From the NCBI RefSeq assembly GCF_009914755.1, contig NC_060925.1: a DNA stretch of 64,000 nt; one strand, written 5' to 3'. Source of the DNA: the human T2T-CHM13v2.0 reference genome, Homo sapiens. Numbering within the stretch: position 1 is the first letter of the stretch; each line of letters starts with the position of its first letter. The notes beneath the pieces are model-generated. The model worked only from the letters and a program-made list of their open reading frames with translations, was not told the origin of the DNA and searched no databases. Shown here one piece after another: positions 12,370 through 55,129 of the stretch. The position numbers and the translations under genes were made by a program.

Positions 12370-12645
12370 TTTGTCACCAACTGCCAGTTCTGGGGTTTCC
12401 CCAGACCACCCTCAGTTTCAAGAATTTACTAAAAAGACTCACAGAACTCATTGAATGCCATTGTACTCATGGTTTATAATAGAGAAAGGGTAGAAATTAG
12501 GACCAATCAAAGGAAGAGACATATCACATAAGGTGGAATCTAGGAGGATTTTGAATGTTAAGTTTCCATTGTCTTCAGGACATATTACCTGTCATTGTTG
12601 TACAGCAATAAACATGGAGTACTAAAAACCTGGGGAGCTCACCTG
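12370..12645. mobile_element. MER21-like LTR fragment
   Basis: ACTCACAGAACTCA...TACTCATGGTTTAT...GGAAGAGACA motif order typical of MER21; paralog at about 33465-33740. Confidence 0.6.
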
Positions 12646-12649
12646 ATGC

Positions 12650-15500
<2,851 letters not shown>

Positions 15501-23515: not shown

Positions 23516-23640
23516 GTGGCTCATGCCTCTAATCCCACCACTTTGGGAGGCTGAGGTGCGTGGATCATGAGGTCAGGAGATCGAGACCATCCTGGCCAAC
23601 GTGGTAAAACCCCTTCTCTACTAAAATACAAAAAATTAGC
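23516..23640 (+). mobile_element. Alu left monomer (AluSc/Y-like), truncated at the duplication junction
   Basis: GTGGCTCATGCC...GAGATCGAGACCATCCTGGCC...TACAAAAAATTAGC, with the right monomer missing. Confidence 0.88.
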
Positions 23641-23777
23641 TGATAGATAACATCAAGATAACATGTGGGTTCTCAGCTGCACTGAATCAAGCCTACCTAC
23701 ATCTTTGTCTTCCTCTGCACTTTTCCTTCCACATCAAACTCCAGGAATGCCAAGCTGCGCTGGCCTTCTACCCCATT

Positions 23778-25145
23778 TCCACTATTTTGCCCCCGCCAAC
23801 GCGGCTTTTTGGGGCTCTTTGCCCTCGCCACCGCGGCTTTTTGCCGCCGCAGCTTTTTGCGTCTTTCTCCCCCCGCCGCCGCGGCTTTTTGCGGCTTTTT
23901 TCCCCCTGCTGCCGCAGCTTTTTGCCCCCGCCACCGCGAATTTTTCCGCAGCGGCTTTTTGTCACCGCCACCGCGACTTTTTATGGCTTTTGGCCCCCGG
24001 CGCCGCGGCTTTTTACTGCTTTTCGCCCCCGCCGCCGCAGGTTTTTCCCGCCGCGGCCTCTTGCCCCGCCGCCGCGGCCTCTTGCCCCGCCGCCGCGGCC
24101 TCTTGCCCCGCCGCCGCGGCCTCTTGCCCCGCCGCCGGCCTCTTGCCACGCCGCCGCGGCTTCTTACCCCGCCGCCCCGGCTTTTTGTGGCTTTTTGCCG
24201 CCGCGGCTTTTGGCCCCCGCCACCGCGGCTTTTTACGCCTTTTCGCCCCCGCCGCCGCGGCTTTTTTCCCCCGCCGCCGCAGGTTTTTCCTGCCGTGGCT
24301 TCTTGCCCCTACTGCCCGGGCTTTTTACGGCTTTTTGCCCCCGCCACCGCAGCTTTTTGCCCCCGCCGCCGCGGCTCCTTGCCCCCTACGCGTCTTCCTG
24401 CCCCCGCCGCCGCGGCTTTTTATCACCCCAGCCGCTTTTTGCCCCCGCCGCCACGGGTTTATGCCCCTGCCGCCGAGGGTTTTTGCGTCTTCATGTCCCC
24501 GCCGTCGTGGCTTTTTGCAGCCCCTACTTTTTGCCCCCTCTGCCGCAGCTTTTTGCGGCTTTTTACCCCCTGCGCTGCGGCTTTTTGCGGCGTTTGGCAC
24601 CGGACGCCGCCGCTTTTTGAGGCTTTTTGCCCCCGCCGCCGCGGCTGTTTGCCGCCGCCGCACCGTTTTGCCCCCGCCGCGCCTTTTTGGCCACGCCGCA
24701 TCTTTTTGCCGCCGAGGCTTCTTACCCCACCACCGCGGCTTTTTGCCCCTGCCGTCGCAGCTTTCTGCCCCCGACGCTGCGGCTTTTTATGGCTTTTTGT
24801 CCCCGTCACCGCAGCTTTTTCCCTCGCCGCCGCGACTTTTTGCCCCCGCCACCGCAGCTTTTTGTCGCCGCGGTTGTTTGCCTCGGCCGCCATGGCTTGT
24901 TGCCCCCGCCGCCGTGCCTTGTTGCCCCCGTCGCCCCGGCTTTTTCCCCCACCGCCCAGGCTTTTTGACCCCACCGTTGCGGCATTTTGCACCCGCCGCC
25001 GTGGCTTTTTGCCCCCCGCGGATTTTTCCCCGTGCCGCGGCTTTTTGCTCCTGCCCCCACAGGTTTTTACCGCTGCGGCTTTTTCTCCCCGCCGTTGCGG
25101 GTTTTTCCCCCCACGACCGCGGCTTTTTGCCCCCACCGCCGCGGG
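23778..25145 (+). repeat. GC-rich pericentromeric minisatellite (GCGGCTTTTTGCCCCCGCCGCC)n, 'CAAAAAG'-type, about 1.4 kb
   Basis: Tandem 12-13 bp and 21-23 bp units, each with a T5 core and CCGCGG; very CpG-dense. Confidence 0.93.
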
Positions 25146-25296
25146 TCTGAGGGCGGGATCGGCAAACTCGGCTGCCAGATCTAACAGCGTCCTGGCTAAG
25201 GCAGCGCCGAGGGTCACTCCTGGTCCAGCTCTCCTGGCTCGGGGGTTCCTTGCCTAGACACCCACGCCCCGTGCTCTGTTCCTGGGCCGCTGCAGC

Positions 25297-25527
25297 CTGT
25301 ATAGAGCGGCGCTGCGCTCGGCCCCGATGGGAGAGAAGAAGGAGAGCAGTGGCGGGGGTGACGCGGCTATCGCGGAGGGAGGCGCAAGGGTCGCAGCCAG
25401 TTGGGTGCTGCAGCAGTGCGGGCAGCTCCAGAAGCTCATCGGCATCTCCGTTGGCAGGCTGCGCGTGCTGTGCACCAAGTGCGCTGTGCCCAAGGACCTC
25501 ACCCAGCAGGAGATACGGACCGTGCAG
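25297..25527 (+). pseudogene. KSR1: Unprocessed KSR1 exon-1 duplicate (KSR1P-type), copy 1
   Basis: Translation (L)[76 protein letters not shown] aligns without gaps to the recalled KSR1 N-terminus ([24 protein letters not shown]...[11 protein letters not shown]). Ends at a phase-0 donor CAG|GTAAGG (25528). No downstream KSR1 exon recognised. Confidence 0.93.
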
Positions 25528-25804
25528 GTAAGGGGATCTGGGACCAGGGCTGGGCTCCAGCACTGGACTGGACATCTCCCTCGGGGCCCCAGTTCACTCC
25601 TGGCCGAGTTCCATCCTTGAGCCCGCGTCGCCACCTTGGAGGCTTCTCCTCCCTCCTGCACTCGCTGAAACGGCAGCCGGAGGACCCGGGATCAGCCCTC
25701 ACCTTGGGCAGGATTTGTGGGGCGGGTGCGTGTTGGGAACTTTGATGGAGGCTCAAGGGGCCCGTGGGTGGGGTGGGCTGTGCGTGGACATCCCCTTACG
25801 CCCC

Positions 25805-25965
25805 GAATTTCCATGTGGTGCAGCCTTCTCATCTTGTAGGTGAGGAAACCGAAGGCCTGAGGGAGAAATGACTTGCCAGGAGCCCCTGTTAAGGAAAACT
25901 AACAAAGTGTGGTTATCAAAGGAGAACTGAGTTCGGATTCAGACCTGGAGTCCCACACCCTTGGT
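25805..25965 (-). mobile_element. MIR fragment(s) in the KSR1 intron-1 copy
   Basis: CATCTTGTAGGTGAGGAAACCGAAGGCCTGAGGGAGAAATGACTTGCC MIR core; paralog at about 49160-49310. Confidence 0.6.
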
Positions 25966-26351
25966 TAAGACATTATACCACCTTGAGTCTGGCCTGTTGA
26001 CTGAGGGTGAGCCACTCCATCCTCGTCTGATTGTGGGGTCTTGACCTCAAGGGGTTTCCTGCAGGAAGAAGCAAATGGGTTTGCTTTCCTAGCTCTGTCC
26101 AGTACCTTAGGGACCTTGAGAAATGGAGAGATTCTTGGAGAGCCATCTGGTGTATGTCATGGGTGGGCCTTGTTTGAAGGTCAGTCTGCCCAGTGGGCTG
26201 GCTCAGCCCGAATGAACTGTCTTGAATCTTTGGAGATGTCTGTGTACTATTAAGGGTTTCTCATCCTTGCACAAAAAGATCCCCGGGAAATTAGGTGGGA
26301 AAACCTTAACTTTTGTGGAGCCTTGTATTTGTCTTAAAAGTTCATGCACAT

Positions 26352-26626
26352 AGCCAGGTGTGGTGGCTCACGCCTGTTATCCTGTCCTGGATCCCTTGAG
26401 TCAAGGAGTTTGAGACCAACCTGGACAATATACTGAGACCCCATCTCTACAAAAAATAAAATATTAGCCAGGAGTGGTTGTGCACATCTGTAGTCCTAGC
26501 TACTACTGTGGCTGAGGCGGGAGGAACACTTGAGCCTGCACTGAGCTGTGATCTCACCAGTGTACTCCAGCCTGGGCCACAGAGCAACACCTTGACTCAA
26601 AAAAAAAAAAAAAAAAAAAAAAAAAA
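26352..26626 (+). mobile_element. Old Alu (AluJ-like, internal deletion)
   Basis: Dimeric Alu with A-tail; the same element is in the paralog at 48503-48769 (-). Confidence 0.88.
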
Positions 26627-26744
26627 CCAAGAAAAATCCTTGAAGATTTTGCATTCTGTCCCACTATCCATTGGTTTTCATGTCAAGATAATGTCAGAAA
26701 TTCTTTACAATTGCTTCCAGAAGGAGTAACCTTTTGATCTAGTG

Positions 26745-26937
26745 CACAGCTGTCCAGTCTTTTGGCTTCTCAGGGCCACATTGGAAGAAGAATGCTCCTG
26801 GGCCACAGATAAAAGACACTACTGCTAATGATAGATGATGAGCTTAAAAAAAAAAAAGGTTTGTGCATAATTTTCATGATACCCACCACGACAGATAGGA
26901 GGAAAACTCCTTGTAGTCAAAGGGTTGGACACGGCTG
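26745..26937 (+). mobile_element. MER30 (hAT-Charlie) with perfect 8-bp TSD
   Basis: TGTCCAGTCTTTTGGCTTC...GGGCCACATTGGAAGAAGAA...GGTTGGACA; TSD ATCTAGTG at 26737-26744 and 26938-26945. Confidence 0.88.
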
Positions 26938-27663
26938 ATCTAGTGTCTTGTCGTCCGTTTTGGCTTTCTCCCTGACTCCAGAATGCAGGTAGAGATGTAG
27001 AGACATGCTCTCAGGACAGCTGTTGAGATAAAAAAAATTCTTGTCATTTATTCCCAAGGACATCTGTTTGCCATTTGCATTGAAAAAGTCTCCATTCAAA
27101 CTGCTGTCACATATAAAATCTATTTATATGTCTGTATTTTTCTGTTGTCTTGGCCTTTGTGAGCAGTAGTGTGTTTTTACCAAGGAAACTGTCCTTCCAA
27201 ATAATGAAGCGGAAGTCAGCCTACCTGCTTGCCATTTTTCTTCCCCTTCCATTTTTCAGTTGAAAGGATTGACTTCCTGCCTAGAATAGTTTCTGCTGTG
27301 CTTCTTATCCTTCTTGTGGAGATTTCAGATTATCTGAATTGCTTTTCTATCTTAAGAAAAAACGCAACAATTCTCCCACCTGAGAGGAATGTAAACTGTA
27401 GTAAGTTAGCAGAACCAATCCGTAAAGTTTTTACATTGTTTGTTGCAAAATGCAGCGCTGGTGTCTCCATCACTAACCTTTTCTATCCCTCATTGCTCTT
27501 TCTTTGACTGCAATAGGATACCTCTAGGCAAATCTGTATTCCCGAGACAGAGTGTCCTTTTGGTGAGCTATAAGTACACTCAATGTTAGGCTGAAATACT
27601 AGTTTTTATCTATGGTGAAATGGAATCATATCAGTGACTTTCTTAAAAAGGAAATTTAACTCT

Positions 27664-28572: not shown

Positions 28573-28907
28573 AATTTGGAATATAATGGGAAAAGAGAAA
28601 AATAGAAAGCTATGCATAAACACGTGCATTAAAATGAATTTTATGTGGGCTTTTTCATGAAAATGTTCCTAATGTATTTTATTTTTTTATTGTGGTAAAA
28701 TACACATAACATAAAATGTACTTTGTTAACCATTTGAAGTGTACAGTTCAGTGGTACTAAATATAGTCATAACATTGTGCAGCCGTCCCTACCATCCATC
28801 TCCATAATTCGTTTCATCTTGTAGAACTGAAACTCTATACCCATCAAACAATACTTCCCCATTTCTTCCTCCCCCCAGCTTCTGGCAACCATCATCATAC
28901 CATCTCT
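28573..28907 (+). repeat. ~330-bp direct repeat B, copy 2 (L1 portion truncated at the arm A junction)
   Basis: Same-orientation match to 17447-17776; abuts inverted arm A at ATCTCT|ATAATGCTAATC. Confidence 0.95.
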
Positions 28908-30849
28908 ATAATGCTAATCAAGCATAGTGGCTGTGTTTCTTGCTTCCTCTAGTCCGCAGGTAGCACACAAATGTAATAGACTACTTATTCATTTCACATC
29001 TATTTATTTTCTGCCTTATACCAAGCTTGTGGGATTCTCTTAAATACAACATTTTTATACTTACACCTATGCAATACCCATTAGCATCGCCTTCCTAAAT
29101 CAGGGGAAATTGAGCCTCTGTAAGGTGGAGCAACTTCCTAAGATATAAAACTCAGCATTGAAGTCTGTATACTTCAATATCCTGCCCTCTTCTCATGTGT
29201 CTTTACTGCCTTTTATGTATGTGTTAGGTGTTCAACAAATTCTCTTTTTTAAACTGAATTTAAGCCGTGGAGCAGTGTTTTGTTGAACAATAAATATGAT
29301 ATAGGAGACTCTTCCTCCCTTTCATGTATGATCCTGTTCATGAAAAAGAGAAATTCTTTCATTGTGCTAGAAGCTTAAAATAATGAAAATGCCACTTTCT
29401 ACATTAAACAGAAACTGAAGGGAATCAAGGTGAATTGCATGAGACTTAGAAAACAAGTGGGAAAGAAATCTAGTATAATTTGCCCTTTGTGTACCTTTAT
29501 TATTTAGCGTTTGAGTAAATGATTCCCCAAAATATCTTCCCATCTTAATTCATGTCTATAAAGTAGACGTTTATGTCTCACCTTGTCAAGAAGGGCAAAC
29601 TCTAACATAAACATTCCCCCAAAAATGCTTCCTGCTAAAACGTAAGCTCATTCTGGCTAGAAATGCAGCTCACTTCCTAAAGATTAATTGGTAGCTAATT
29701 TTGCATGCTGTTCTCTGAACTTGAGTGAAAGCTGTCCATCAGGCATACAGGGAATGACGGGAAAGGTGACAACAGAAGATGAATGCTATGTCACTTACCT
29801 ACAAAGATGACCTGCCTTTTCTTTCAAATTCTTGATATCTTAAGACTTCATTAATTCATCTCTCTTTTCCCTTGGTTCAACATTTTGCTATACCAAAACT
29901 CATGTGAAACAATGACCTAATGTAATAAAAATGGCATTTTTCTTTCATGTAGATGCAAGCTAACTGACAATTTTACAATCCACATATTTCCTTTGTCAAT
30001 TTTTCATTCTGTATTGGAAGTAATTGATAGGTATTTCTGAAGGGATGAAGGTGTTTCTGTGTTCATTGTGATCCAAACTATTTTTAGGCCTAGGGGCGTT
30101 TGTAAAACTATTTGTGCCCACTGACCAAGGATCACTGTGGCAGAAAGCAGCAAACTTGCATAAGATGTCACTGCTTCATAGGTTGGCTTCGAAAACTAGG
30201 GGCTTAGTCTATACTCTTATGAATAAAAGACATTAATAGATGTAGTATAAGATTACAATCATATTTTCCTTTTGACAGTCACATTATAAAGCATGATGTA
30301 TTGCAATTAATCTCAATTAGCTGATCACAATTAAAATTAATAATGTTTATTATTGCTGATAAAAATCATGTCTCTCCTGTTCTCAAACGTGCAAGTAATT
30401 CTTGTAATTTTAATACAAATTTGCATATTATTATTAATTGATTTAATCTCATTGGATTTGGTTCATGGATCCAATTTATTAAAATATTGGTAATGGGATA
30501 ATGATTTGTCTCCCCATTTCATGTACACTAAAAACAACATTTCTTACAATGGTCTGCAAGCCCATCATGATCTGCCGCATGTTAACCGCCAAAATTGTTT
30601 TATATCTTCACCCTTGATCTTACCAGTGGTCCTGGCCACCTCACTGTCCTCTGGACATGCCAACTTGCTGCTGACTTATGATCAAGACCCTAGTTAATTT
30701 CTTGGCTTGGAAAGATAGCCCTCCATATATCCATTGATCAGCTCATTCAACTTCCTCAAGTCTTTACTGAAACTTCACATTCTCGATGAGGCCTATTCAG
30801 TATTTCAAACAGCCTCCCAGCTGCAACATTCCAAAACCCCTTACTCTTC

Positions 30850-31649
30850 TGTGTATTTTTGAAAGGATTTATTGAGATATAATTTACATAGTGTAGAGTG
30901 CACACATTAATGTCTACAAGTCAGTGGCTTTTAGTATATGCCCAGATAAGTGGAGCCATCATCACAATGAATTTTAGAGCATTTTCATCACTTCAAAAAG
31001 AAACCCCACCTTCCCTAGCTGTTAACCTCCTATGTACCCATCTCCTACTCAATCCTAAGCAACCACAAATCGGTTTTCTGTCTCTATAGATTTTCCTATT
31101 CTGTTTTCATCTAAATAGAATCATACAATAGGTGGCCTTTTGTGCCTGGCTTCTTTCAGTTGGCATAATGCTATCAAGGTTCATGTACCTATTGGTACTT
31201 TATTTCTTTTTATAACTGTATAACATTCAATTTCATGGATATAACATTTTGTTTATCCAATAATATTTTTATTGACATTTGAGTTGTGTTCAGCCTTTGG
31301 CTATTTTAAATACTGCTGCTAAAAATACTTGTGTACAATTTGTGTTTGAACACTTCTTTCCAATAATCTGGGTGTATACCTAGGAATAAATTTCTGGGTC
31401 ATATGACAATTCTATGTTTCATATATTTAGAAGCCATCAAATTATTTTCCAAAGTAGCCAGTTCTAGCCATAGAGTATCTAACTGTGGTTTTGATTTGTA
31501 GTTGCCTGATGAGTGATGCTATTGAGTATATTTTTATGGGATTATTGACCGTTCGTGTATCTTCTTGGGAAACACATCTATTCCTATCATTTATCAGTTT
31601 TGAGTTGGGATATTTGTGACGGAGTTAAAACAATTTTTCTATATTCAAG

Positions 31650-31696
<47 letters not shown>

Positions 31697-33460
31697 CATA
31701 TAGATACGTGTTTTTCAAATATCTTCTCACAATTTTTGAGCTGCCTTTTGACTTGCTTGGTTGTCCTTTGAAACACCAATGTCTTTAATTTTTAAGAAAT
31801 TTTAAATATCTAATTTTTATTGTGTTGCTCATGTTTTTGGGGTTACAGCTATTTCTTTGCTAGATCCAAAATCCTGAAGACTTTCGCATATGCTTTATTC
31901 TACCTCTTGAATGTGTGTCTTTAATTCATTTGAGTTAATATTTTTGTATGCTTTGGGGTAAGGGTTCGAATTTACTATTTTGCAAGTGGTGATCCACGTG
32001 TACGTTGTTGACCCAGTGTGTTCAAAGACTGTCTCTTCCTCCTTGAATTGCACATGGCACCACTGTAAGAATCCATTGACTGTAGACACATAGTTTTATA
32101 TATGGACTCTCAATTCTCTTCCATCAATCTATATATTTTTCCTTCATCACTATTGTGTTGTCTTCATTACTGATACTTTGCAGTAAGGTTTGGAGCATGG
32201 GGGTGTGAATTATCCTAATATGTTTTCTTTTTTCAAGATTATTTTGGCTATTTTGAGTCCCTTACAATTCCATGTGTATTTTACAATCAGTTTGTCAGTT
32301 TCTAGACAGAAGTCTGTTGGGATATTTGCAGGGATTTCATCAAATCTGTACTTCAAATTGTAAAGTACTACAATATTAAATCGTCCAATTCATGGGTGTA
32401 AGGTGTTTGCTAATTATTTAAATATTCTTTAAACAATAATTTTTAATTTTCAGAGTAAAATCTTGTATCACATTTTCCAAATTAATTATTGTCTCTTTTT
32501 TTTGATGCTATTTTAAATTGAAGTGTTTTCCTAAATTCATTTTGGGGTTTTCATTGCAGATGTGTGCAATTGATTTTTGTACATTTACCTTGTTTGCTGT
32601 AATATTGCTGAAATAATTTACGAGTTCTATCGTTCGGTGGATTCCTTAAAATTTTCTATATACAAGAATGTTATTTTGAAATAAAGTTTTATTTCTTCCT
32701 GTTCAATATGGGTGACTCTTATTTTTTTAGTTGCCGATTTGCCCTGCATAAAATCTTTAGTACAGTGTTGACTAGAAGAGATCAAAGTATATATCCTATT
32801 CTTATCTCTGACCATAGCGGGAAAGCATCCTTTACCATTAAGTTGCATGCTTGCTGTTGGCTTTTCACAGGTGTCATGTATCTGGTGTAGAAAGCTCTCT
32901 ATTCCTGGTTCATTGAGTTTTTGTTTTTATTTTTAATCATTAAAGCATTTGGATTTTGTTAAATGTCTTTTCCGAATCTATCGAGATGATCATGCAATTC
33001 TCTTTTCTTATTCTATGGATAAGATGTATTACCGTAATGGATTTTGGGCTGTTAAACCAACCTGGGATTACTTGTATAAATTTCACTTTGTAATAGTGTA
33101 TAATTCTTTTATATGTTGCTAGATCTGATTTATTAGTATTTTTTAAGGAATTTTGCATTTATACTTATAGTAGTTTTATTTTTCTATGCTATTTTGACTA
33201 ATTTTTGTATCAAGGTAACACTGGCCCCACAGAATAAATTGGGAAGTGAATATTTCTCTTTTTTAAAAAATCTAGTAAAGAATTAATATCAATTTTTCAA
33301 CACTAACAAATATTATTATAAATTATTAATTTATCTAATTTTTATTTTCTTCCTTCTGCTTGCTTTAGGTTTAGTTTGCTATTCGTTCCAGTGCCTTAAT
33401 GTGGAACGTCATCTTATCTCATCCTTTCATTTGTCTTTTCATTTTGTAAATAGTGTCTTT
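30850..33460 (-). mobile_element. Degenerate L1M (paralog of 12650-15500)
   Basis: ORF 32940-33158 (KRIIHYYKVKFIQVIPGWFN) is a decayed L1 ORF2 segment. Confidence 0.85.
31654..31692. repeat. (AT)n microsatellite, about 19 units
   Basis: Pure AT run; the left-arm site at about 14710 has only TATATATG. Confidence 0.95.
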
Positions 33461-36400
33461 TTAGCATCAGATGAGCTCCCCAGGTTGGTAGTACTCCATG
33501 TTTATTGCTGTACAACAATGACAGGTAATATGTCCTGAAGACAATGGAAACTTAACATTCAAAATCTCCTAGATTCCACCTTATATGACATGTCTCTTCT
33601 ATTGCTCCTAATTTCTAACCTTTCTCTATTATAAACCATGAGTACAATGGCATTCAATGAGTTCTGTGAGTCTTTCTAGTAAATTCTTGAAACTGAGGGT
33701 GTTCAGGGGAAGTCCCTGAACTGGCAGTTGGTGTCAGAAGTGAGAATCTTCTTACACGGCCTCTTCCTTTGAACTGTGCAGCTGGACGCAAACTCTGCAC
33801 AATTTGGGCCAGAAGTCTCGTGTTGACTTTGCAGCCTAAAGTATCTTGTAGTTTGTCTGACCCTCAATAAATTTGGTTTCATCAAATATTGTATTTGTTA
33901 CCCCAAAATTACCATCACGTTTTTTTTCTCCCAATAACTAACATTGGGAGAAATAGCCAGGTGAGTCTCTAACTCAACAGAAACAGGTGATCCATATACC
34001 ATATAAGTGGCAATTTCATTTTGCCTTCTTCCACCAAATCTTAGCAACCTCAACCATTGCCATGAGCCACTGTAGGCCTACCAGCTACAAACAAACAAGT
34101 ATCTTGTAAAAATACTTCATACTCCCATTTGATACATTTCCCAGCAAAGAGATGCTTACTTTAACTCTATGCAAGTGGCTCATATGCACGAAGTCTGTAG
34201 ATATTATTCATGTAGTGTGAGAAAATCATCGCAGCGATGCCAGCACATTCTTCTTCCCATGATCTTCTTAGTTTGCAAACATATTCAGGCCATGGGTGAG
34301 AGATTTGTATTTCACAGTACAACAATTTTATGGAGGGCATTGAAACTTACATTGAGCATTTTAGTACAGTCACACATTACTGAATGCTAGGGATACGTTC
34401 TAACTGATGTATCCATAGGCAATTTCATCATTTTGCAAACATCACAGATAATATTACAAACACCTAGATTGTACAGCCTACCACGTTTAGGTTATATGGT
34501 ATAGCCTCTTTCTCCCAGGCTACAAATCTGTGTACTACATTACTCTACTGAATACTGCAGGCAATAAGAACACAGTGGTAAGAGGTTATGTATCTAAACA
34601 TACTTAAACGTAGAAAAGTATGTAAAAATATCTATTATAATCTCATGGGACCACGTTTGTAACTGTAATCCATCTTTGACTAAAATGTTATTATGCATGA
34701 CATGACTCTATGACAAAAATAAAATGACAGATTGTAAAAAATGTACACAGGTATCAAACATATTAATATTGTAAAAATACAAATATTTATTCAGTGTAAG
34801 AATTTGTAATGATCACAAAATGTTCACAGCTTATATTTTAGTACAGTTTCAAATGCCTAGTGCAATTGCTATTTATTTCTGTGTGTATTTTAAACATGTA
34901 TATAATAAATATTTTTCAGGTTCAACAATATATATCAATCCAACTGGCTCTTATACATATTAGTTAACATCAATTAGTAAATTCATATATATATATACAC
35001 ACGTGAATCAGTCTGTATGCATGTGTGTGTAAATGTAACTGTATGTGTGTGTAAATGTAACTGGATGCGTCCTAATATTTACCATTACCTACAAGATTTC
35101 CAAGATTCATTTATTATCTTTAAATGGTGTGCATTTAAAGACTTACCAAATAAAATCGCAATCGTGGAATATATCAAGATGTTATTAAATTCATCTTGTG
35201 CACATAATTGTTTCTTTAAATTTATGTTTCTTGCAAAACTTGCGGTAATGCTCATGCAAAAAATAATTTTCTAAATAAAAAATAAACACATTTTCTCAGT
35301 CATTAATTCTTAATAATTATTTCTCCCCAATAATTAATGTGAATTAATTCTTAATTCTTAATTATAGAATAATGTTGCCCTTCAGAGTTCTGAATCTTTT
35401 GCACGTTGTGTACATTTCACTGACTAGAACATCTTCCGGAATATTGGCATTAATTAATGTCACTCAGCAATTAATGATTTCAAAGAAATTAAATACCATT
35501 CATATTCTGAATCACAAGGGTACTTTGGCATCTAATTTAATCGAGCTCTTTGTATCATCGTCTACACTTTAATTACTTAACAAACATTTCTCTGTGTGAG
35601 AAAGATTGAGAAGGTTATTGTGCTTTTTTATGATGCAACTTTTGCTTAATCTAGAGATAGGCAATGCTCCCTATATGGGACAAAGAGAAAAATCAAAGAG
35701 CAATAGAGATGTGACAGGCATGGAAAAAGACAATACATTTATAAAACAAATAGGGCCACAGATGATGACAATGGGGATCAAATCTTGAGATACTGACTCA
35801 GTTTATAACCGCACTGTACAATAGAGCAAATCATTTGTTAATTATTTTACAAATGGAATCTAATTTAATTAAGATGAATACAGTGTTTTAAACAAGACAG
35901 GTCATCTTAAAATAAAATAGTGGAAAAAGTGATAAAACCAATGTAAAAATCATAAACATTTTATAAAGAATTTTTTCATGTAATTTATTATTTTCCTTTA
36001 AAATCACCCAAATCAAATAATTTTATCTAAATTAACAAATAATCATCAGAAGTTAACTAATTTTTACTTTATAATACTAGGTTTAAAAATTCTTCACTAT
36101 ATTTTTAATCATACATGCTTATACATAAAATAGACATAGGGTATAGGTTTACATGTTCACAGTATTATATTGTAATTGTTCCTATGGATGTGGTTTTTCA
36201 ATAGAATTAATAAGTACTTTTAAAAAGTTTCAATTTCAATGATATATATGTTTATTTTTCTTTGACAAAGCATACATATATTGATAGGTAATAATAAGAA
36301 AATCTTCTAAAGACATTACAGGAACATGAATAAGTAATTAAATCCTCCATAATTTGTAACTTTTTATGTAAGCAGAACACATTTAACTGAAAATTGCTTT

Positions 36401-47818: not shown

Positions 47819-48184
47819 TTAAACACAAATCTTAATTCATTCTTACAATTATTCTGAGGGTACAAAAATGGAAGAGAAAGAAAAATGGCAAGTAGGTAGG
47901 CTGACTTCAGCTTCATTATTTGGAAGGACAGTTTGCTCGGTTAAAACACACTACTGCCTACAAAGGCCAAGACAGCAGAAAAATACAGACTTACATAAAT
48001 AGATTTTATATGTGACAGCAGTTTGAATGGAGACTTTTTCAATGCAATGAGAAACAGCTGTGCTTGGGAATAAATGACAACTAATTTTTTTTATCTCAAC
48101 AGCTGTCCTGAGAGCATTTCTCTACATCTCTACCTGCATTCTGGAATCAGGGAGAAAGCCAAAACGGACGACAAGACACTAGAT

Positions 48185-48384
48185 CAGCCGTGTCCAACCC
48201 TTTGACTACAAGGACTTTTCCACCTATCTGTGGTGGTGGGTAGCATGAAAATTATGCACAAACCTTGTTTTTTTTTTTTTTTTAACCTCATCAGCTGTTG
48301 TTAGCATTAGTGTATTTTATGTGCGGCCCAGGAGCATTCTTCTTCCAATGTGGCCCTGAGAAGCCAAAAGACTGGACACCTGTG
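48185..48384 (-). mobile_element. MER30, paralogous copy
   Basis: Flanked by CACTAGAT at 48177-48184 and 48385-48392. Confidence 0.88.
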
Positions 48385-48502
48385 CACTAGATCAAAAGGC
48401 TACTCCTTCTGGAAGCAATTGTAAAGAATTTCTGACATTATCTCGACATGAAAACCAATGGATAGTGGGACAGAATGCAAAATCTTGAAGAATTTTTCTT
48501 GT

Positions 48503-48769
48503 CTTTTTTTTTTTTTTTTTTGAGTCACGGTCTTGCTCTGTGGCCCAGGCTGGAGTACACTGGTGAGATCAGAGCTCAGTGCAGGATCAAGTGCTCCTCC
48601 CGCCTCAGCCACAGTAGTAGCTGGGACTACAGATGCCCACAACCACCCCTGGCTAATATTTTATTTTTTGTAGAGATGGGGTCTCACTATATTGCCCAGG
48701 TTGGTGTCAAACTCCTTGACTCAAGGGATCCAGGAAAGGATAACAGGTGGGAGCCACCACACCTGGCTA
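48503..48769 (-). mobile_element. Old Alu, paralog of 26352-26626
   Basis: Poly-T head and the same internal deletion. Confidence 0.88.
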
Positions 48770-49597
48770 TGTGCATGAACTTTTAAGACAAACACAATGC
48801 CCCACAAAAGTTAAGGTTTTTCCCACCTAATTTCCAGGGCGATCTTTTGGTGCAAGACTGAGAAGCCTTTAAAAGTACACAGACAACTCCAAAGATTCAA
48901 GACAGTTCATTCGGGCTGAGCCAGACAACTGGGCAGACTGACCTTCAAAAAAGACCCACCCATGACATACACCAGATGGCTCTCCAAGAATCTCTTCAGT
49001 CCTCAGGGTCCCTGACATACTGGACAGAGCTAGGAAAGCAAACCCATTTGCTTCTTCCTGCAGGAAACCCCTTGAGGTTAAGACCCCATAATCACATGAG
49101 GATGGAGTGGCTCACCCTCAGTCAACAGGCCAGACTCAAGGTGGTATAATGTCTTAACCAAGGGTGCGGGCCTCCAGGTCTGACTCCCAACTCAGTTCTT
49201 CTTTAATAATCACACTTTGTTAATTTTCCTTAACAGGGGTTCCTGGCAAGTCATTTCTCCCTCAGGCCTTCGGTTTCCTCACCTACAAGATGAGAGGGCT
49301 GGACCAGATGGAAATTCAGGGGGTAAGGGGATGTCCTCGCGCAGCCCACCCCCACCCCCACGGGACCCTGGAGCCTCCATCCCAGTTCCCACCACGCACC
49401 CGCTCCACAAATCCTGCCCAAGGTGAGGGCTGGTCCCGGGTCCTCTGGCTGCTGCATCAGCGAGTGCAGGAGGGAGGGGAAGCCTCCAAGGGGGTGACGT
49501 GGGCTCAAGGATGCAACTCGGCCAGGAGTGAACTGGGGCCTGGAAGGAGGTGTCCGGGCAGCTCCTGGAGCCCAGCCCGAGTCTCCAAACCCCTTAC

Positions 49598-49828
49598 CTC
49601 CAGGGTCTGTATCTTCTGCTGGGTGAGGTCGTTGGACACAGCGCACTTGGTGCACAGCCTGCACAGGCTGCCAATGAAGATGACGATGAGCTTCTGGAGC
49701 TGCCGGCACTGCTGCAGCGCCCGGCTGGCCGCAGCCCCTGCGCCACCCTCCGTGGCCGCCGCATCACCCCCGCCACCGCCCTCCTTCTTCTCTCCCATCG
49801 CCTCTGCAGGCAGCGCCGCTCTATGCAG
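49598..49828 (-). pseudogene. KSR1: Unprocessed KSR1 exon-1 duplicate (KSR1P-type), copy 2
   Basis: (L)[76 protein letters not shown], then donor GAG|GTAAGG (GT at 49597-49596). Closer to the recalled KSR1 sequence than copy 1. Confidence 0.95.
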
Positions 49829-49979
49829 GCCACAGGGGCCTAGGCAAGGAGGCCGGGGCGCCGGCGCCTAGGCAAGGAATCCCTGAGCCAGGAGAGCTGG
49901 ACCAGGAGTACCCCTCGGCGCTGCCCTTGCCAGGACGCCAGTAGAGCTGGCAGCCGAGTCTGCTGCTCCCGCCCGCAGA

Positions 49980-52742
49980 GCCGCGGCGGCAGGGACAAAA
50001 ATCCTCGGCGGCGGGGCCAAAAAGTCGCAGTGGCAAAAAGCGGCGGCAACCAGGGCAAAAAGTCGCGGCAGCAAAAAGCCGCGGCGGCGGGGACAAAAAG
50101 CCGCTGCGGCGGGGGCAAAAAGCGGCGGCGACAGTGTCAAAAAGTCGCGGCGGCAAAAAGCCGCGGAGGCGGGGGCAAAAAGCCGCGGCTGCGAAAAACT
50201 CGCTGCGGAGGGGGGGCAAAAAGCCGCGACAGCGGGGGGCTAAAAGCCGCGCCGGGTAAAAGGCTGTGGCGGGTAAAAAGTCGCGGCGGCAAAAAGCCGT
50301 GGCGGCAGGGGGGCAAAAAGCCTCGGCGGCGGGTTGGGGCAGAAAGCCGCGGCGGGCAAAAAGCTGAGGCGGGGTGGGGGCAAGAAGCCGCCGCGGCGGT
50401 GGGGCAAAAAGCCGCGGCGGCGGTTGGGTGGCAGAAAGCCGCGGCGGGCAAAAAGTTGCGACGGCGAGGGGGGCACAAAGCCGCGGCGGGCAAAAAGCCG
50501 AGGCCGGGTGGGGGGAATAAGCTGAGGCGGCGGGGCTGGAAAAAGCCGCGGCGGGCAAAAAGCCGAGGCGGGGTGGGAGCAAAAAGTCGCGGCGGCGGGG
50601 TGGGCAGAAAGCCTCGGGGGGCTTAAAGCCGCGGCGGCGAGGGGCGCACAAAGCCGCGGCAGGTAAAAAGCCGAGGCGGGGTGGGGACAAAAAGCCGCGT
50701 CGGCGGTGGGGCAAAAAGCCATGGCGGCGGGGCGAAAAAACCCCAGCGGGCAAAAAGTCGCGGCGGCGGGGGACAAAAAGCCGCTGCAGCAGGGGCTAAA
50801 AAGCTGTGGTGGGGAAAAAGCCGCGGCGGCGGGGGGCAAAAAGCCCTGACGGGCAAAAATCCGAGGGGGGTTGGGAGCAAAAAGCCGCGGCGGGTAAAAA
50901 GCCGCGGGGTCAGGGTGGAAAAAGCCGCGGCGCAGAAAAAGCCGCGGGGTCAGGGTGGAAAAAGCCACAGCGGAGAAAAAGCCGCAGCGGCGGGGGGGCA
51001 AAAAGCCACGGCGGCGGGGGGGCAAAAAGCCACGGCGGCGGGGGGTAAAAAGCCGTGGCGGGCAAAAAGCCGCGGTGGCGGGGGGTAAAAAGCCACGGCG
51101 AGGAAAAAGCCGCGGCTGCGGGGGGGCAAAAAGCGGCGGGGTGCAAAAAGCGGAGGGGCGCAAAAAGCCGCAGCGGCGGGGGGGGGCAAAAAGCGGCAGG
51201 GGGCAAAAGCCGCGGCGGCAAAATTCGCAGCGGCGAGGGGTCAAAAAGCCGCGGCGGGCTAAAAGCCCTGGCGCCGGGGGGGCACAAAGCCTTGGCGGGG
51301 AAAAAACCGAGGCGGGGTGGGGGGAATAAGCCGCGACGGCGGGGCGGGGAAAAGCCTCCGCGGCGCGGGGGCAAAAAGCCGCAGCGGGCAAAAAGCCGAG
51401 GCCGGGTGAGAGCAAAAAGTCGCGGCGGCGGGGTGGGCAGAAAGCCGCGGGGGGCAAAAAGCCGCGGCGGCGAGGAGGGCACAAAGCCGCGGCGGGTAAA
51501 AAGCCGAGGCGGGGTGGGGACAAAAAGCCGCGTCGGCGGTGGGGCAAAAAGCCATGGCGACGGGGGGTAAAAAGCCCCAGCGGGCAAAAAGTCGCGGCGG
51601 CGGGGGACAAAAAGCAGCTGCAGCAGGGGCTAAAAAGCTGTGGTGGGGAAAATGCCGCGGCGGCGGGGGGCAAAAAGCCGCCGCGGCGGGGGGCAAAAAG
51701 CCCTGGCGGGTTGGGGGCAAAAAGCTACGGCGGGCAAAAAGCCGCGGCGTTGGTGGGGGCAAAAAGCCGCGGCGGCTGTGGGGCAAAAAGCCACGGCGGC
51801 GGGGGCTAAAAAGCCGCTGCGGGCAAAAAGTCGCGGCGGCGGGGACAAAAAGGCGCGGCGGGCAAAAAGCCGTGGCGGCGGGGGGGGGCAAAAAGCCGCG
51901 GCGGCGGGGTGGGGGCGGAAAGCCACGGCAGGCAAAAAGCCGCGGCAGCGAGGGGCACAAAGCCGTGGCGGGCAAAAAGCCGAGGCGGGGTGGGGGCTAA
52001 AAGCCACGGCGGCGGGGGGTAAAAAGCCGCGACTGGCAAACAGCCGCGGTGGCGGGGGGGAAAAAAACCACGGCGGCGGGGGGGGGCAGAAAGCCGCAGC
52101 GGGCAAAAAGCGGCGGCAGCGAGGGGGGCACAAAGCCGCGGCGGGCAAAATGCCGAGGCGGGGTGGGGGCAAAAAACCACGGCGACGGGGGGGTAAAAAG
52201 CCGCGGCAGGCAAAAAGTCGCGGCGGCAGGGGACAAAAAGCCGCGGCGGCGGGGGTTAAAAAGTCGCGGTGGGGAAAAAGCCGCGGCTGCGGGGGGCAAA
52301 AAAGCCGCCGCGGCGGGGGGCAAAAAGCTGCGACGGGTAAAAATCCGAGGCGGGGTGGGGTCAAAAAGCCGCGGCGGGTAAAAAGGCAGGGGGGCAGGGT
52401 GGAAAAAGCCATGGCGGTGAAAAAGCCGCGGTGGCGGGGGGGCAAAAAGCGGCGGGGGTCAAAAAGCGGCAGGGGGCAAACAGCCACGGCAGCGGGTGGG
52501 GGACAAAGCCGCGGCGAGCAAAAAAGCCAGGGCGGCAAAATTCGCAGCGGCGAAGGGTCAAAAAGCCGCGGTGGTCAAAAAGCCCTGGCGCTGGGGGTCA
52601 AAAAGCCTTGGTGGGCAAAAAGACAAGGCACGGTGGGGGAAAAATGCCGCGGCGGCGGGGCGGGAAAAAGCTGCGGCGGCAGGGGGGGCAAAAAGCCGCA
52701 GCGGGCGGTGGTGCAAAAAGCCGCGGCGGCGTGGGGCAAAAT
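49980..52742 (-). repeat. GC-rich (GGCAAAAAGCCGCGGCGGCGGG)n minisatellite, about 2.8 kb
   Basis: Same family as 23778-25145 in the opposite orientation, with internal block duplications. Confidence 0.95.
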
Positions 52743-55129
52743 AATGGAGATGGGGTAGAAGGCCGGCACAGCTTGGCATTGCTGGAGTGCGATGTGATAG
52801 GAAATGTGCAGCCAAAGACAAAAAAAGATGTAAGTAGGCTTGACTCATTGAAGCTAAGAACCCAGATGTTATCTTGAGGGTATTAACTAATAAGCAGTTT
52901 AAATCAGAATGGCACATTTGGCAGGCATAGATACTGTTTGAAAAGAGAAAAGTCAGTAGAGAGAGGTAACAAACTTAAATATGTGCCAAGTCTAGAAACA
53001 AGAGACCAGGGGGATAAGGACCTTTCAAAATAAAATGCAAGATTTGAAAACTGATTGGCGGGTGATGAGGAAAAGGCAGGTCTTTAAGGTCCATCCCTGT
53101 TTTGCTTTAAGTTGTTAGGGGGTGGTTTTATCACATGTTGTAGAATATGTCATTTCAGTTTTGAACATCTTGGGTTAAATTGTCCTAACATATCTTATGA
53201 ATTTGATTTTCTTCCCTGGGAAGCTAATATTTCAAACACTTAAAGAGTATATAGATTTCCAACTTGTATCCCGTTTATAAAACTATCTCTAGGCTGCTGA
53301 TTTCAGGAGGAGGCTCATGAATATTCTCTTTGCAGAGAATATACCAGGAGTTAAGAACAGCTTCAATATTTGTGGACGACCAGTTAACTAAGCCACCTCT
53401 TAGTGTCTTTACTTGGGAAATCTTAGCTGAAGGTATTCAATAATGAACCAAGAGTGACTAAAAAGTTCAATATTTAAGTATATTTCATTGTAATTAATTT
53501 GAATTGAAGTAGCCATATACAGCTAGTATTTACTGTATTGAACAATGCAAATAAGAGGAAAAAATTAATAACCATCTCTAATACCACATGCCAAACTCCT
53601 CATCAATTTATTCTAGCTAAAGGAGTTGATCAGAAGCAGCAGTTGAAAGCACCAACTAAACCAGCTGGGGTTAGTTCACTGTCATTCTCTCAGAACCATC
53701 TCTTCTCTGAACAAAACAAGTACAAGAGTTCATTGTGAATCTGCATTCTCCTTGCCTATTTTAAGGTTTTGATGTTGACACAAATTTGTGAAATCCCTCC
53801 TGTGGTGTGATATTTCGTTTTCCTTGCTTTCTGTTAGGACAAGAATGCTTCAGCTCTTAATTTAAAATTATGTTTCTCCCTCCTAGGTTGAGTGAACTTA
53901 GAATGCATTCTCTGACATATCCAAGATTTTGTTAATATGAATTTCGGGAAAAAAGCATACTTAATTAGCTAAGACGTCTTCTTCCAAGCTTGATCCTATG
54001 TTCGACATCTTTTGAATTTCTAGTTGCATGGGCTGCTCTCTGACACTGGTTAGTGACCTGGAAGCTCTATTAATGTTAGGGGAGGTGGTGTATGAGCATT
54101 AGAGGTATCCTTGCAAGGAAAGACTTGTTTTATCTCAATACATCTTTTTTTTGCACACGAGAAAGTCAATGTCTGAGTCTTCTAAAATCTTCCTATTTCC
54201 AAATTGCAGATTATGATTGATTCCTAAACAAAGACCTAATTTTTGACTCAGAGACGTGGCAAGCTAGTGAATCACCGTTATAATTTAACAATCTTCAAGA
54301 TAAAATTATCTCTGATGCTTAGATGTTGCCCAATTATTAAGATATTTGGATGTTTCGTTAAGAATGGAAAACTCTAGTCTCTTGAGCAGAGACTATAAAG
54401 GCCTCAGATGATCATTTTTAATTTTATGCTCTTTTCTTTAACACCTTCAACACAGTTGGAAGCAGCTGATATTCCCCAGAGTTGTGTTTTTTAAACCAAA
54501 TGCATGGTTCAGTGGTAGAAAACTGGGCTGATCCAAGCTGTTTTCAGTAAACACTTCATTTCAGGTGACCTATTTCATATTAAATAATCTCTAGATCCTG
54601 TCTTCGAAACTAACTAGATCAGATAACCTACCCTGGATTTTCTCCTTTTAGGGTCTGTGAGCTGCAGTCACTTTTGTGAAAATGATTGCAATGACAAGAT
54701 AGAGTTGTAGATGGGGAAAATGTTTTGACTAATTTAAGCATAGTGGCATTTCATATGAGAATTTAAGTTACACACATTTGAAAATGATAATGGAGTCTCT
54801 TGGCTGAGCTTTAAAAAAAATAGCGTTTAGGCTAAAAAGGGAAGTGCTACCTCTCCTAAAATCAGAAAGATGTTACAGTAATTCTCCATTCTCTAGAATT
54901 ATCAAGAAGCACCTTTGTGATGATTTACTTTTGCTCTTGGGACTGTGAGCCCGTGTAGTCGTGGAATCATCAATTAGAATGGTGGCTTTCTGATCCCAAA
55001 GTCACTCGTTCTGAAAACAATATTTTTCATAAATTTGAAAGTGAGAAGTTTTGATCTTGCCATTCCCAAGTAACTCTCTTAATAAGAGGCATCGGCATGC
55101 TTCAGTGACAGCTGTCACCTTCAAGTGCT

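What the first reader, a model, noticed from the sequence alone, without database searches (positions are those of the whole stretch)
23643..27256. Portable 'satellite + first exon' cassette: CpG-dense minisatellite fused directly to KSR1 exon 1 with an intact splice donor, present twice
Seen: in both copies the GC satellite runs without a spacer (...GCCGCCGCGGCTCTG.GGGCGGG) into about 150 bp of putative 5' leader, then KSR1 coding exon 1 and an intact AG|GTAAGG donor. The same junction in both copies means satellite and exon moved as one unit. Known: KSR1 is the RAF-pathway scaffold at 17q11, and GC-rich CAAAAAG/CAGGG repeats mark pericentromeric duplication boundaries. Inferred: the satellite stands in for the KSR1 CpG-island promoter, making a variable-length promoter/first-exon module that can splice into whatever sequence lies downstream and so seed lncRNAs in heterochromatin.
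Basis: partly seen in the sequence, partly recalled or inferred. Interest (0 to 1): 0.8.

Follow-up and report, generated by a model that had tools for sequence, protein, structure and literature searches.

The report
KSR1 fragment beside pericentromeric GC satellite
This is a decaying 0.68-kb scrap of the KSR1 gene's 5' end stuck to a GC-rich pericentromeric satellite and copied at least 57 times between chromosome centromere regions: an ordinary junction of duplicated segments, with nothing in the sequence pointing to a working promoter.

Summary
In both window copies a CpG-dense ~22-bp satellite (GCCGCCGCGGCTTTTTGCCCCC)n runs without a spacer into a KSR1 5' leader, the KSR1 exon-1 coding part and a GT donor.

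It is not a two-copy cassette. The T2T genome holds at least 57 non-native copies near the centromeres of 11 chromosomes. All 57 share the same satellite|KSR1 junction and the same KSR1|downstream junction, so there was one founding event.

Only ~680 bp comes from KSR1. The native flanks are single-copy and the native gene has no satellite.

The satellite also occurs without KSR1. One such array lies beside an ABCD1 (Xq28) fragment and another beside a 14q32-derived piece, so it is a general duplicon-boundary repeat.

The KSR1 piece decays like neutral DNA:
- The native start codon is lost in 57 of 57 copies.
- The reading frame is broken in 16 of 57.
- CpG sites have diverged about three times faster than other sites.
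- The leader is no more conserved than the intron.

The promoter/first-exon reading is unsupported but could not be tested here. One lead is new: the KSR1 breakpoint sits on the most satellite-like 30-mer of the native locus.

The parts
23647..23774 (+). Copy 1: 132-bp remnant of upstream flank X. An Alu fragment lies directly upstream at 23516-23637.
   Evidence: X positions 418-549 match here at 82.6%; 23516-23637 matches an Alu in the native locus.
23760..25144 (+). Copy 1: GC-rich satellite array, unit about 22 bp (GCCGCCGCGGCTTTTTGCCCCC), about 1.35-1.4 kb, C-rich strand in the KSR1 sense.
   Evidence: Tandem Repeats Finder rows 23800-25144. GC 0.67, 169 CpG.
25145..25326 (+). Copy 1: KSR1 5' leader homolog. 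Homology to native chr17 starts at 25138. The native start codon is replaced by CTGTAT at 25297.
   Evidence: 25138-25804 matches native L031 5947-6624 at 84.8%..
25327..25527 (+). Copy 1: KSR1 exon-1 coding remnant, 67 open codons starting at the native Met11. Donor CAG|GTAAGG with GT at 25528-25529.
   Evidence: pN/pS against the native exon is 0.93.
25528..25804 (+). Copy 1: first 277 bp of KSR1 intron 1. KSR1 homology ends at 25804.
   Evidence: the native locus stops matching exactly at 25804.
25805..27256 (+). Copy 1: segment Y, not from the adjacent KSR1 intron. It looks MIR-like at the start, with an Alu at about 26347-26639. It is shared with copy 2 up to 27256.
   Evidence: 74 genome candidates, the 40 scored at 94-100% identity; the native intron beyond the breakpoint is single-copy. 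The MIR and Alu labels come from reading the sequence and were not tested with a repeat library.
52752..53300 (-). Copy 2: flank X, at least 549 bp. It may extend beyond 53300.
   Evidence: 116 genome candidates, the 40 scored at 90-100% identity..
49985..52751 (-). Copy 2: satellite array of about 2.75 kb.
   Evidence: GC 0.68, 327 CpG.
49799..49984 (-). Copy 2: KSR1 5' leader homolog. Homology to the native locus starts at 49991.
   Evidence: 49991-49319 matches native L031 5943-6623 at 86.9%.
49598..49798 (-). Copy 2: KSR1 exon-1 coding remnant, 67 open codons. Donor GAG|GTAAGG with GT at 49597-49596.
   Evidence: PDB 5vyk E 8e-20.. pN/pS is 0.75.
49319..49597 (-). Copy 2: first ~280 bp of KSR1 intron 1.
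47864..49318 (-). Copy 2: segment Y.
   Evidence: copy 1 25096-27256 matches 50029-47864 at 89.7%.
49290..52744 (+). RefSeq predicted pseudogene LOC124905675. It runs antisense to the KSR1 remnant, and most of its exons lie in the G-rich, nearly T-free strand of the array.
   Evidence: The hub's gene table gives the model; stop-free frames of up to 374 aa on the + strand through the array.

Best explanation
This is a pericentromeric duplication mosaic with no sign of function. It is made of flank X, a GC-rich satellite of the GCTTTTTGC type, a 0.68-kb piece of the KSR1 5' end (about 175 bp of leader, exon 1 and about 275 bp of intron 1) and an unrelated segment Y.

Shown:
- One founding event joined the KSR1 piece to the satellite on one side and to Y on the other.
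- The mosaic was then carried passively inside larger duplication blocks to at least 57 places on chromosomes 1, 2, 7, 10, 13, 15, 16, 17, 18, 21 and 22.
- It split early into two subfamilies. Copy 1 belongs to one and copy 2 to the other.
- The array changes length, from about 50 bp to about 2.75 kb.
- Sequences on the far side of the array are swapped between copies. The same satellite also joins X to other duplicons.
- The KSR1 piece is decaying.

Inferred:
- The KSR1 piece was captured next to a satellite that already existed, and the join was guided by sequence similarity. The breakpoint lies on a native 30-mer that looks like 1.3 satellite units.
- The CpG loss reflects germline methylation.
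- Neither the exon nor the leader has a function.
For: Identity of the exon: PDB KSR1 chains and Pfam SAM_KSR1_N.

Size of the KSR1-derived piece:
- Only native L031 5943-6624 matches the copies.
- The 1-kb native flanks on each side have 1 candidate each in the whole genome.

Single origin:
- 57 of 57 non-native copies have the same satellite|KSR1 junction.
- 57 of 57 span the same KSR1|Y junction.
- 0 of 57 keep the native start codon; all carry the same altered sequence there.

Subfamilies: clades of 28 rows (SH-aLRT 100, holding copy 1) and 25 rows (98, holding copy 2), plus two basal chr16 pairs.

The native gene lacks the array.

The satellite is a general boundary repeat:
- A two-unit pattern gives 140 hits against 0 for the reversed control, including places not among the 57 KSR1 copies found, on chr9, chr14 and 17p.
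- X plus array is joined to three other partners in 4 of 4 loci fetched for having X but no KSR1 hit.
- One partner carries an ABCD1 fragment. Its source is on chrX at 152.01 Mb and it has copies on chr2, 10, 16 and 22.
- Another partner comes from chr14 at 100.3-101.1 Mb.
- Among the KSR1 copies, the far side of the array is full X, 132-bp X, or one of three other sequences.

Decay:
- Divergence from the native gene is 26.4% at CpG sites against 8.9% at other sites, and CpG count falls from 73 to 28-66.
- The reading frame is intact in 41 of 57 copies.
- Non-CpG divergence from the copy consensus is 5.9% in the leader, 4.2% in the exon and 4.2% in the intron.

Homology at the breakpoint: the best satellite-like 30-mer among 17,942 windows of the 9-kb native locus is L031 5926-5955, which abuts the breakpoint.

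A named relative exists: KSR1P1 on chr10 (passages read).
Against: - No transcription, methylation or chromatin data were available, so 'no function' rests on sequence decay alone.
- The arrays are still very CpG-dense (about 12 per 100 bp; the CGCG core is kept in 17 of 42 and 55 of 112 scored units). That fits some protection from methylation, or homogenisation within the array.
- GT donors are kept in 55 of 57 copies, the ATG in 54 of 57, and the reading frame in 41 of 57.
- Median pN/pS against the native exon is 0.53, below 1, for the 44 of 57 copies that could be scored. The constrained native branch and CpG-rich synonymous sites both push this value down.
- Similarity-guided joining is not general. 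At the one other junction where I could read the ancestral sequence directly against the array (the chr14-derived partner), I saw no satellite-like sequence at the breakpoint.
- The genome searches score only 40 of 81 candidates, so copies without the satellite could exist among those not scored.
Confidence: 0.8

Rival explanations
1. The array replaces the KSR1 CpG-island promoter, and together with the leader, exon 1 and the donor it forms a dispersed promoter/first-exon module of variable length. The module starts transcripts that splice into whatever lies downstream.
For: - The arrays meet formal CpG-island density.
- The native upstream promoter DNA was not copied, so any transcription would have to start in the array or leader.
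- Donors are kept in 55 of 57 copies.
- Papers report that repeats labelled REP522 are transcribed at the 8-cell stage (passages) and in tumour data (passages and tables). At the BAGE locus they are H3K9me3-silenced in human liver but active in a transchromosomic mouse (passage). Whether this satellite is what RepeatMasker labels REP522 was not tested.
Against: - The leader and exon show threefold excess loss at CpG sites.
- The leader is no more conserved than the intron.
- The reading frame is broken in 16 of 57 copies and 2 of 57 donors are lost.
- The hub's RefSeq table has no sense-strand model at either copy.
- The same satellite lies beside unrelated duplicons, so it is not a KSR1-specific promoter substitute.
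Confidence: 0.1
2. The satellite family was born from KSR1. A native repeat of about 21 bp at the KSR1 5' end (CGCCGCGGCTTTCGCTTTGCTGCCGCGGCT) expanded into the array after the first duplication. Arrays found elsewhere descend from it through exchanges within arrays.
For: - The most satellite-like site of the native locus is exactly at the breakpoint.
- The KSR1|satellite junction never varies, while the far flank does.
- The basal copies have short arrays of 300-600 bp and no X.
- Non-CpG divergence from the native gene is 6-12.5%, which suggests an old event.
Against: - No copy keeps any KSR1 DNA upstream of the native repeat. The native upstream 1 kb has a single genome candidate. The original breakpoint would therefore have had to fall on the seed by chance.
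- The second half of the satellite unit differs from the native repeat (sequence against the consensus).
- Arrays occur at many places not among the KSR1 copies found.
Confidence: 0.1
3. The history is the same as in the best explanation, but the join was blind end-joining. On this reading the satellite-like 30-mer at the breakpoint is a coincidence inside a CpG island of 73% GC.
For: - The chr14-derived partner shows no satellite-like sequence at its ancestral breakpoint.
- GC-rich islands hold many near-matches. A reverse-strand window at L031 6169 scores 15 against 16 for the top window.
Against: The top window ranks first of 17,942, and only 4 windows reach a score of 15 or more, three of them at this one site. 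The chance that a random breakpoint falls within about 20 bp of the top site is roughly 0.4% over the 9 kb, or about 3% within the ~1.2-kb island. This is my own arithmetic.
Confidence: 0.3

Closest known systems
GCTTTTTGC / GGGCAAAAAGCCG pericentromeric repeat at duplicon boundaries. Source: Eichler et al. 1997 Hum Mol Genet on the ALD paralogs and Horvath et al. 2000-2001, recalled. These papers were not held and I did not see them.
   Same: - The unit contains GCTTTTTGC.
- It sits at boundaries between DNA of different ancestral origin.
- An array of the same family lies beside an ABCD1 fragment, with copies on chr2, 10, 16 and 22 and the source on chrX. Those are the four sites I recall from the 1997 paper.
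- It is absent from the ancestral loci I inspected.
   Different: - Here the partner is a 0.68-kb KSR1 5' fragment with at least 57 copies.
- The ancestral breakpoint lies on a satellite-like 30-mer.
- I found no paper describing this partner (searches and the failed; the older subscription literature cannot be searched).
KSR1P1, a named KSR1 pseudogene on chromosome 10 (passages in PMC11157162 and PMC8135009).
   Same: It is a KSR1-derived pseudogene near the chr10 centromere. A family member lies at chr10:43,025,545 in this assembly (L019).
   Different: I could not confirm that L019 is KSR1P1, because the papers use other assemblies' coordinates. The window copies are unnamed paralogs on chr1. 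RefSeq does not annotate them as KSR1-derived (hub table).
REP522, a RepeatMasker satellite label (passages).
   Same: It is a GC-rich satellite reported at juxtacentromeric loci such as BAGE.
   Different: No repeat library was available, so I did not test whether this array would be labelled REP522. One paper describes REP522 as mostly telomeric.

Membership tests
Unprocessed (duplicated) KSR1 pseudogene fragment | Homology to the KSR1 coding sequence | tested here: met
   PDB KSR1 chains 5vyk (E 8e-20) and 2lpe (E 1.6e-17). Pfam SAM_KSR1_N at 32.7 and 25.4 bits against a cut-off of 23.1.
Unprocessed (duplicated) KSR1 pseudogene fragment | Genomic origin rather than a retrocopy: homology continues into the leader and the intron | tested here: met
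   Native L031 5943-6624 aligns with both copies, including about 275 bp of intron 1.
Unprocessed (duplicated) KSR1 pseudogene fragment | Cannot encode KSR1: the rest of the gene is absent and the start codon is lost | tested here: met
   The native flanks are single-copy. The native start codon is kept in 0 of 57 copies, and the reading frame is disabled in 16 of 57.
Pericentromeric duplicon-boundary repeat (GCTTTTTGC type) | Tandem GC-rich unit containing GCTTTTTGC | tested here: met
   Tandem Repeats Finder consensus units.
Pericentromeric duplicon-boundary repeat (GCTTTTTGC type) | Lies between segments of different ancestral origin and is absent from the ancestral loci | tested here: met
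   KSR1 (chr17), ABCD1 (chrX) and chr14 pieces each abut or lie near such arrays. No array at native KSR1 or in the 300-450 bp read at the chr14 and chrX sources.
Pericentromeric duplicon-boundary repeat (GCTTTTTGC type) | Distribution limited to pericentromeric and duplicated regions | tested here: inconclusive
   140 pattern hits against 0 control, 100 of them listed, on chr1, 2, 7, 9, 10, 13, 14, 16, 17, 18, 21 and 22. Calling these coordinates pericentromeric rests on my recall of centromere positions in this assembly. 40 hits were not listed.
Functional CpG-island promoter / first-exon module | CpG-island composition | tested here: met
   Arrays: GC 0.67-0.68 with about 12 CpG per 100 bp. 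Leader plus exon: CpG observed/expected 0.71 and 0.58.
Functional CpG-island promoter / first-exon module | CpGs protected over evolutionary time (unmethylated in the germline) | tested here: not met
   In the leader, exon and intron, divergence is 26.4% at CpG sites against 8.9% elsewhere, and CpG count falls from 73 to 28-66. This holds for the KSR1 part only. The arrays keep many CpGs, which is inconclusive.
Functional CpG-island promoter / first-exon module | Selective constraint on the leader, exon or donor | tested here: not met
   Non-CpG divergence is 5.9% in the leader, 4.2% in the exon and 4.2% in the intron. 2 of 57 donors are lost.
Functional CpG-island promoter / first-exon module | Transcription start and spliced transcripts | not testable with these tools
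   No expression, CAGE or methylation data were available. The hub's RefSeq table has no sense-strand model.
REP522 satellite (RepeatMasker label) | Match to the REP522 consensus | not tested

The most novel reading that the evidence does not exclude
In germline, early embryo or tumours, some of the 57 or more array-plus-KSR1-leader modules fire as CpG-island-like promoters. They would splice from the conserved KSR1 exon-1 donor into downstream heterochromatic DNA. That would make a family of chimeric lncRNAs whose output depends on array length.
Probability: 0.1. Interest if true: 0.55.

Novelty: new member of a known kind. Interest (0 to 1): 0.25.

Why it matters
As it stands this is routine pericentromeric architecture: a pseudogene scrap at a duplicon boundary. 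Two points have some value.

First, the complete assembly gives a full census of one small duplicon. There are at least 57 copies, one founding event, two old subfamilies, array lengths from 50 bp to 2.75 kb, and several swapped partners on either side of the array. This shows the satellite acting as a repeated breakage and exchange site.

Second, the ancestral KSR1 breakpoint lies on the most satellite-like sequence of the native locus. That makes an old proposal concretely testable across all duplicons in T2T assemblies. The proposal, which I recall from Eichler et al. 1997, is that these repeats are sequence-specific integration sites.

Tried and rejected
- **Single-strand DNA folding of the array.** I tested whether unusual structure explains fragility. 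The results were z -1.90 (7 of 200 shuffles fold at least as well) and z -1.42 (17 of 200), so the array is not distinctly structured.
- **A pre-integration site.** The distal partners of four X-plus-array loci without KSR1 do not occur anywhere in the window, so no empty site could be identified.
- **Segment Y as deeper KSR1 intron.** It is not found within 2.4 kb of exon 1, and the adjacent native intron is single-copy.
- **Similarity-guided joining at a second junction.** The chr14 ancestral breakpoint shows no satellite-like sequence. The ABCD1 piece is separated from the array by a 142-bp element found at many sites, so it gives no direct junction.
- **Classic papers.** They were not held. 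The PIR4 search term returned unrelated papers.
- **Literature searches.**
  - KSR1 + pericentromeric + segmental duplication: 0 papers.
  - KSR1 + CHM13: 0 papers.
  - A six-term search on pericentromeric duplicon boundaries found 2 papers, which I did not open.
  - For GCTTTTTGC and GGGCAAAAAGCCG, the 25 papers listed of 41 hits included REP522 mentions, which I followed. The GCTTTTTGC hits looked by title like chance strings, and GGGCAAAAAGCCG matched none of the 25.
- **pN/pS.** The median is 0.53 for the 44 of 57 copies with a gap-free exon; the other 13 were dropped for indels. It does not separate weak constraint from the effect of the constrained native branch plus hypermutable CpG synonymous sites.


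Full report
**What is there**

The window is chr1:128,898,001-128,962,000 of T2T-CHM13, according to the hub's note. It is an island of duplicated DNA between ATTCC-type satellite arrays.

At 23760-25144 there is a GC-rich tandem array. Its consensus unit on the + strand is about GCCGCCGCGGCTTTTTGCCCCC. The array runs without a spacer into sequence that aligns to the native KSR1 locus on chr17.

From the retained ATG at 25327 to 25527 there are 67 open codons, followed by CAG|GTAAGG. The second copy lies inverted:
- array 52751-49985
- ATG at 49798
- exon end at 49598
- donor GAG|GTAAGG

The peptide of copy 2 matches the KSR1 CC-SAM chains 5vyk (E 8e-20) and 2lpe (E 1.6e-17). Both copies pass the Pfam SAM_KSR1_N cut-off.

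**How much is KSR1**

Only about 680 bp is KSR1-derived. Native L031 5943-6624 (chr17:28,397,943-28,398,624) aligns with window 25138-25804 at 84.8% and with 49991-49319 at 86.9%. That covers about 175 bp upstream of the native start codon, exon 1, and about 275 bp of intron 1.

The next 1.07 kb of native intron and the 1.03 kb of native upstream DNA each have a single candidate in the whole genome. So the upstream part of the native CpG island was never copied.

The rest of the module shared by the two window copies is not adjacent KSR1 DNA:
- Segment Y (25805-27256 / 49318-47864) has 74 genome candidates. The 40 scored are 94-100% identical.
- Flank X (52752-53300 in copy 2, and only its last 132 bp at 23647-23774 in copy 1) has 116 candidates.

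**Copy number and history**

Two whole-genome searches, each scoring 40 of 81 candidates, give 57 distinct non-native places. They lie on chr1, 2, 7, 10, 13, 15, 16, 17, 18, 21 and 22. The native gene is at chr17:28.398 Mb.

I fetched all 57 and found three features shared by every copy:
- the array abuts the KSR1 piece at the same junction (one copy, L046, keeps only about 50 bp of array)
- the KSR1|Y junction is spanned in the same way
- the native start codon is replaced by the same altered sequence

This points to one founding event.

A maximum-likelihood tree rooted on the native gene has a clade of 28 rows that holds copy 1 (SH-aLRT 100) and a clade of 25 rows that holds copy 2 (98). Two chr16 pairs branch outside both clades.
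- Copy 1's nearest relatives are on chr7 (94% identity).
- Copy 2's nearest relative is on chr16 (96% identity).
- The two window copies are only 83% identical in the leader plus exon and 89.7% identical over the whole shared module.

They are therefore old paralogs that happen to lie 24 kb apart. They are not a recent inverted pair.

Non-CpG divergence from the native gene is 6-12.5%. By ordinary primate substitution rates this suggests a founding event tens of millions of years ago. That is a rough inference, because GC-rich duplicated DNA may change faster.

**The satellite is a general boundary repeat**

The native KSR1 locus has no array. Tandem Repeats Finder reports none in the 9 kb fetched, and satellite coverage upstream of the native exon is 0.0.

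A two-unit pattern with up to 3 mismatches hits 140 places, against 0 for the reversed control. These include sites on chr9, chr14 and 17p that are not among the KSR1 copies found.

I fetched four loci because they had X but no KSR1 hit. All 4 of 4 have X plus an array of about 0.5-1.5 kb, joined to three different distal sequences:
- **ABCD1 partner.** After a 142-bp element, one partner is an ABCD1 fragment. Its translation matches ABCD1 structures at E 5e-25. The source is on chrX at 152.01 Mb, with copies on chr2, 10, 16 and 22. These are the chromosomes I recall from Eichler et al. 1997 for the ALD paralogs, which that paper reported as flanked by a GCTTTTTGC repeat. I could not read the paper here.
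- **chr14 partner.** Another partner derives from chr14 at 100.3-101.1 Mb.

Among the KSR1-bearing copies, the far side of the array also varies. It is full X in the copy-2 clade, a 132-bp X stub in the copy-1 clade, and three unrelated sequences in the basal lineages.

Array length ranges from about 50 bp to about 2.75 kb. Five arrays reached the end of the fetched flank, so those five lengths are minimum values.

The array thus behaves as a repeated break and exchange point between duplicons. That is the known behaviour of pericentromeric boundary repeats.

**Is the KSR1 piece functional?**

The sequence gives no sign of function.
- Relative to the native gene, CpG positions have diverged by 26.4% on average against 8.9% at other positions. 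CpG count falls from 73 to 28-66, with 48 in copy 1 and 40 in copy 2.
- Relative to the copies' own consensus, non-CpG divergence is 5.9% in the leader, 4.2% in the exon and 4.2% in the intron. CpG columns stand at about 19% in all three. Neither the leader nor the exon is protected.

| Feature | Copies that keep it | Source |
|---|---|---|
| ATG at native Met11 | 54 of 57 | |
| In-frame length | 52 of 57 | |
| Fully open frame | 41 of 57 | |
| GT donor | 55 of 57 | |

Against my reading:
- The arrays themselves remain very CpG-dense.
- Median pN/pS against the native exon is 0.53 for the 44 copies that could be scored, 0.93 for copy 1 and 0.75 for copy 2.
- Most donors survive.

None of this separates weak function from modest age. 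No expression or methylation data were available.

The only RefSeq model here, LOC124905675, runs antisense. It lies mostly in the G-rich strand of the array, which is almost free of T and so stays open in all frames. I read this model as a prediction artefact.

**One lead worth keeping**

I scored every 30-nt window of the 9-kb native locus, on both strands, against the satellite consensus. The top window of 17,942 is L031 5926-5955, CGCCGCGGCTTTCGCTTTGCTGCCGCGGCT. It ends where homology with the copies begins.

This fits a join guided by sequence similarity to an existing array. It is also what one would expect if the array had grown out of this native repeat. I consider the second less likely for three reasons:
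- No copy keeps KSR1 DNA upstream of the site.
- The unit's second half differs from the native repeat.
- Arrays occur at many places not among the KSR1 copies found.

The chr14-derived junction shows no comparable similarity, so this is not a general rule on present evidence.

**Comparison with what is known**

The structure is a member of a known kind: a small duplicon bounded by a GC-rich pericentromeric repeat.

One family member appears to be named already. KSR1P1 is described as a pseudogene on chr10, near 42.07-42.15 Mb in the coordinates those papers use. I found a copy at chr10:43.03 Mb in this assembly.

I found no paper that describes the KSR1-satellite combination. The older subscription literature cannot be searched here, and supplements were not examined.

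Papers on repeats labelled REP522 report transcription at the 8-cell stage and in tumours. They also report H3K9me3 silencing at the BAGE locus in liver. Whether this array carries that label was not tested.

**Verdict**

The mobility inference is supported. The promoter/first-exon inference is unsupported by sequence evidence and remains untested.

Interest is low. The breakpoint-similarity lead and the full copy census are the only parts that add anything new.

Noticed in passing
window 3851-17442 and 28907-40575: A large inverted duplication, with collinear arm blocks at 90-96% identity, brackets copy 1 of the cassette. Copy 1 lies in the spacer of about 11.5 kb between the arms.
   Followed up: no
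window 9144-10886: A CCCTCT hexamer run (9144-9203), a ~40-bp GC-rich VNTR (9572-10250) and an A-rich tail (10832-10886) together look like an SVA element. That label is recalled, not tested. The matching stretch of the other palindrome arm is about 1.7 kb shorter (9126-11386 against 34722-35315), so this is probably an insertion made after the duplication.
   Followed up: partly
window 24-3300, 44166-46802 and 62399-62996: Three other repeat arrays: ATTCC-type satellite at the window start, a 13-bp ATTTCATCATTTC array of 2.6 kb next to copy 2, and a TTCC/TTCT polypyrimidine tract. The last is a GGAA-type repeat, which I recall as another boundary-repeat class.
   Followed up: no
window 49290-52744 (+): RefSeq pseudogene LOC124905675 runs antisense to the KSR1 remnant. 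It lies mostly in the G-rich strand of the array, which has almost no T and so has stop-free frames of up to 374 aa. It is probably a prediction artefact.
   Followed up: partly
G000 chr1:128,803,476 (+) and 128,984,028 (-); loci L003 and L002: Two cassette copies about 180 kb apart, in inverted orientation on either side of the window, are identical over the 680-bp KSR1 piece. This suggests a much younger large palindrome, or gene conversion, around this satellite-embedded island.
   Followed up: no
L060 (chr10:38,658,412-38,664,400) 1542-2100: X plus satellite is followed by a 142-bp element present at 130 candidate sites, and then by an ABCD1 exon fragment (E 5e-25 to ABCD1 structures). The source is on chrX at 152.01 Mb.
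   Followed up: yes
L061 (chr13:13.43 Mb); also chr21:10.50, chr14:6.01 and chr15:17.85 Mb: X plus a short satellite is joined to a segment whose older relatives lie at chr14:100.3-101.1 Mb, which I recall as the IGH region. The four acrocentric or pericentromeric copies are 99-100% identical to each other.
   Followed up: partly
G000 chr17:27,671,815 and 27,903,602 against native KSR1 at 28,398,000: The native KSR1 gene lies only about 0.5 Mb from the nearest satellite hit and about 0.73 Mb from a cassette copy on the same chromosome arm. The first capture could have been local, although the chr17 copy is not basal in the tree.
   Followed up: no
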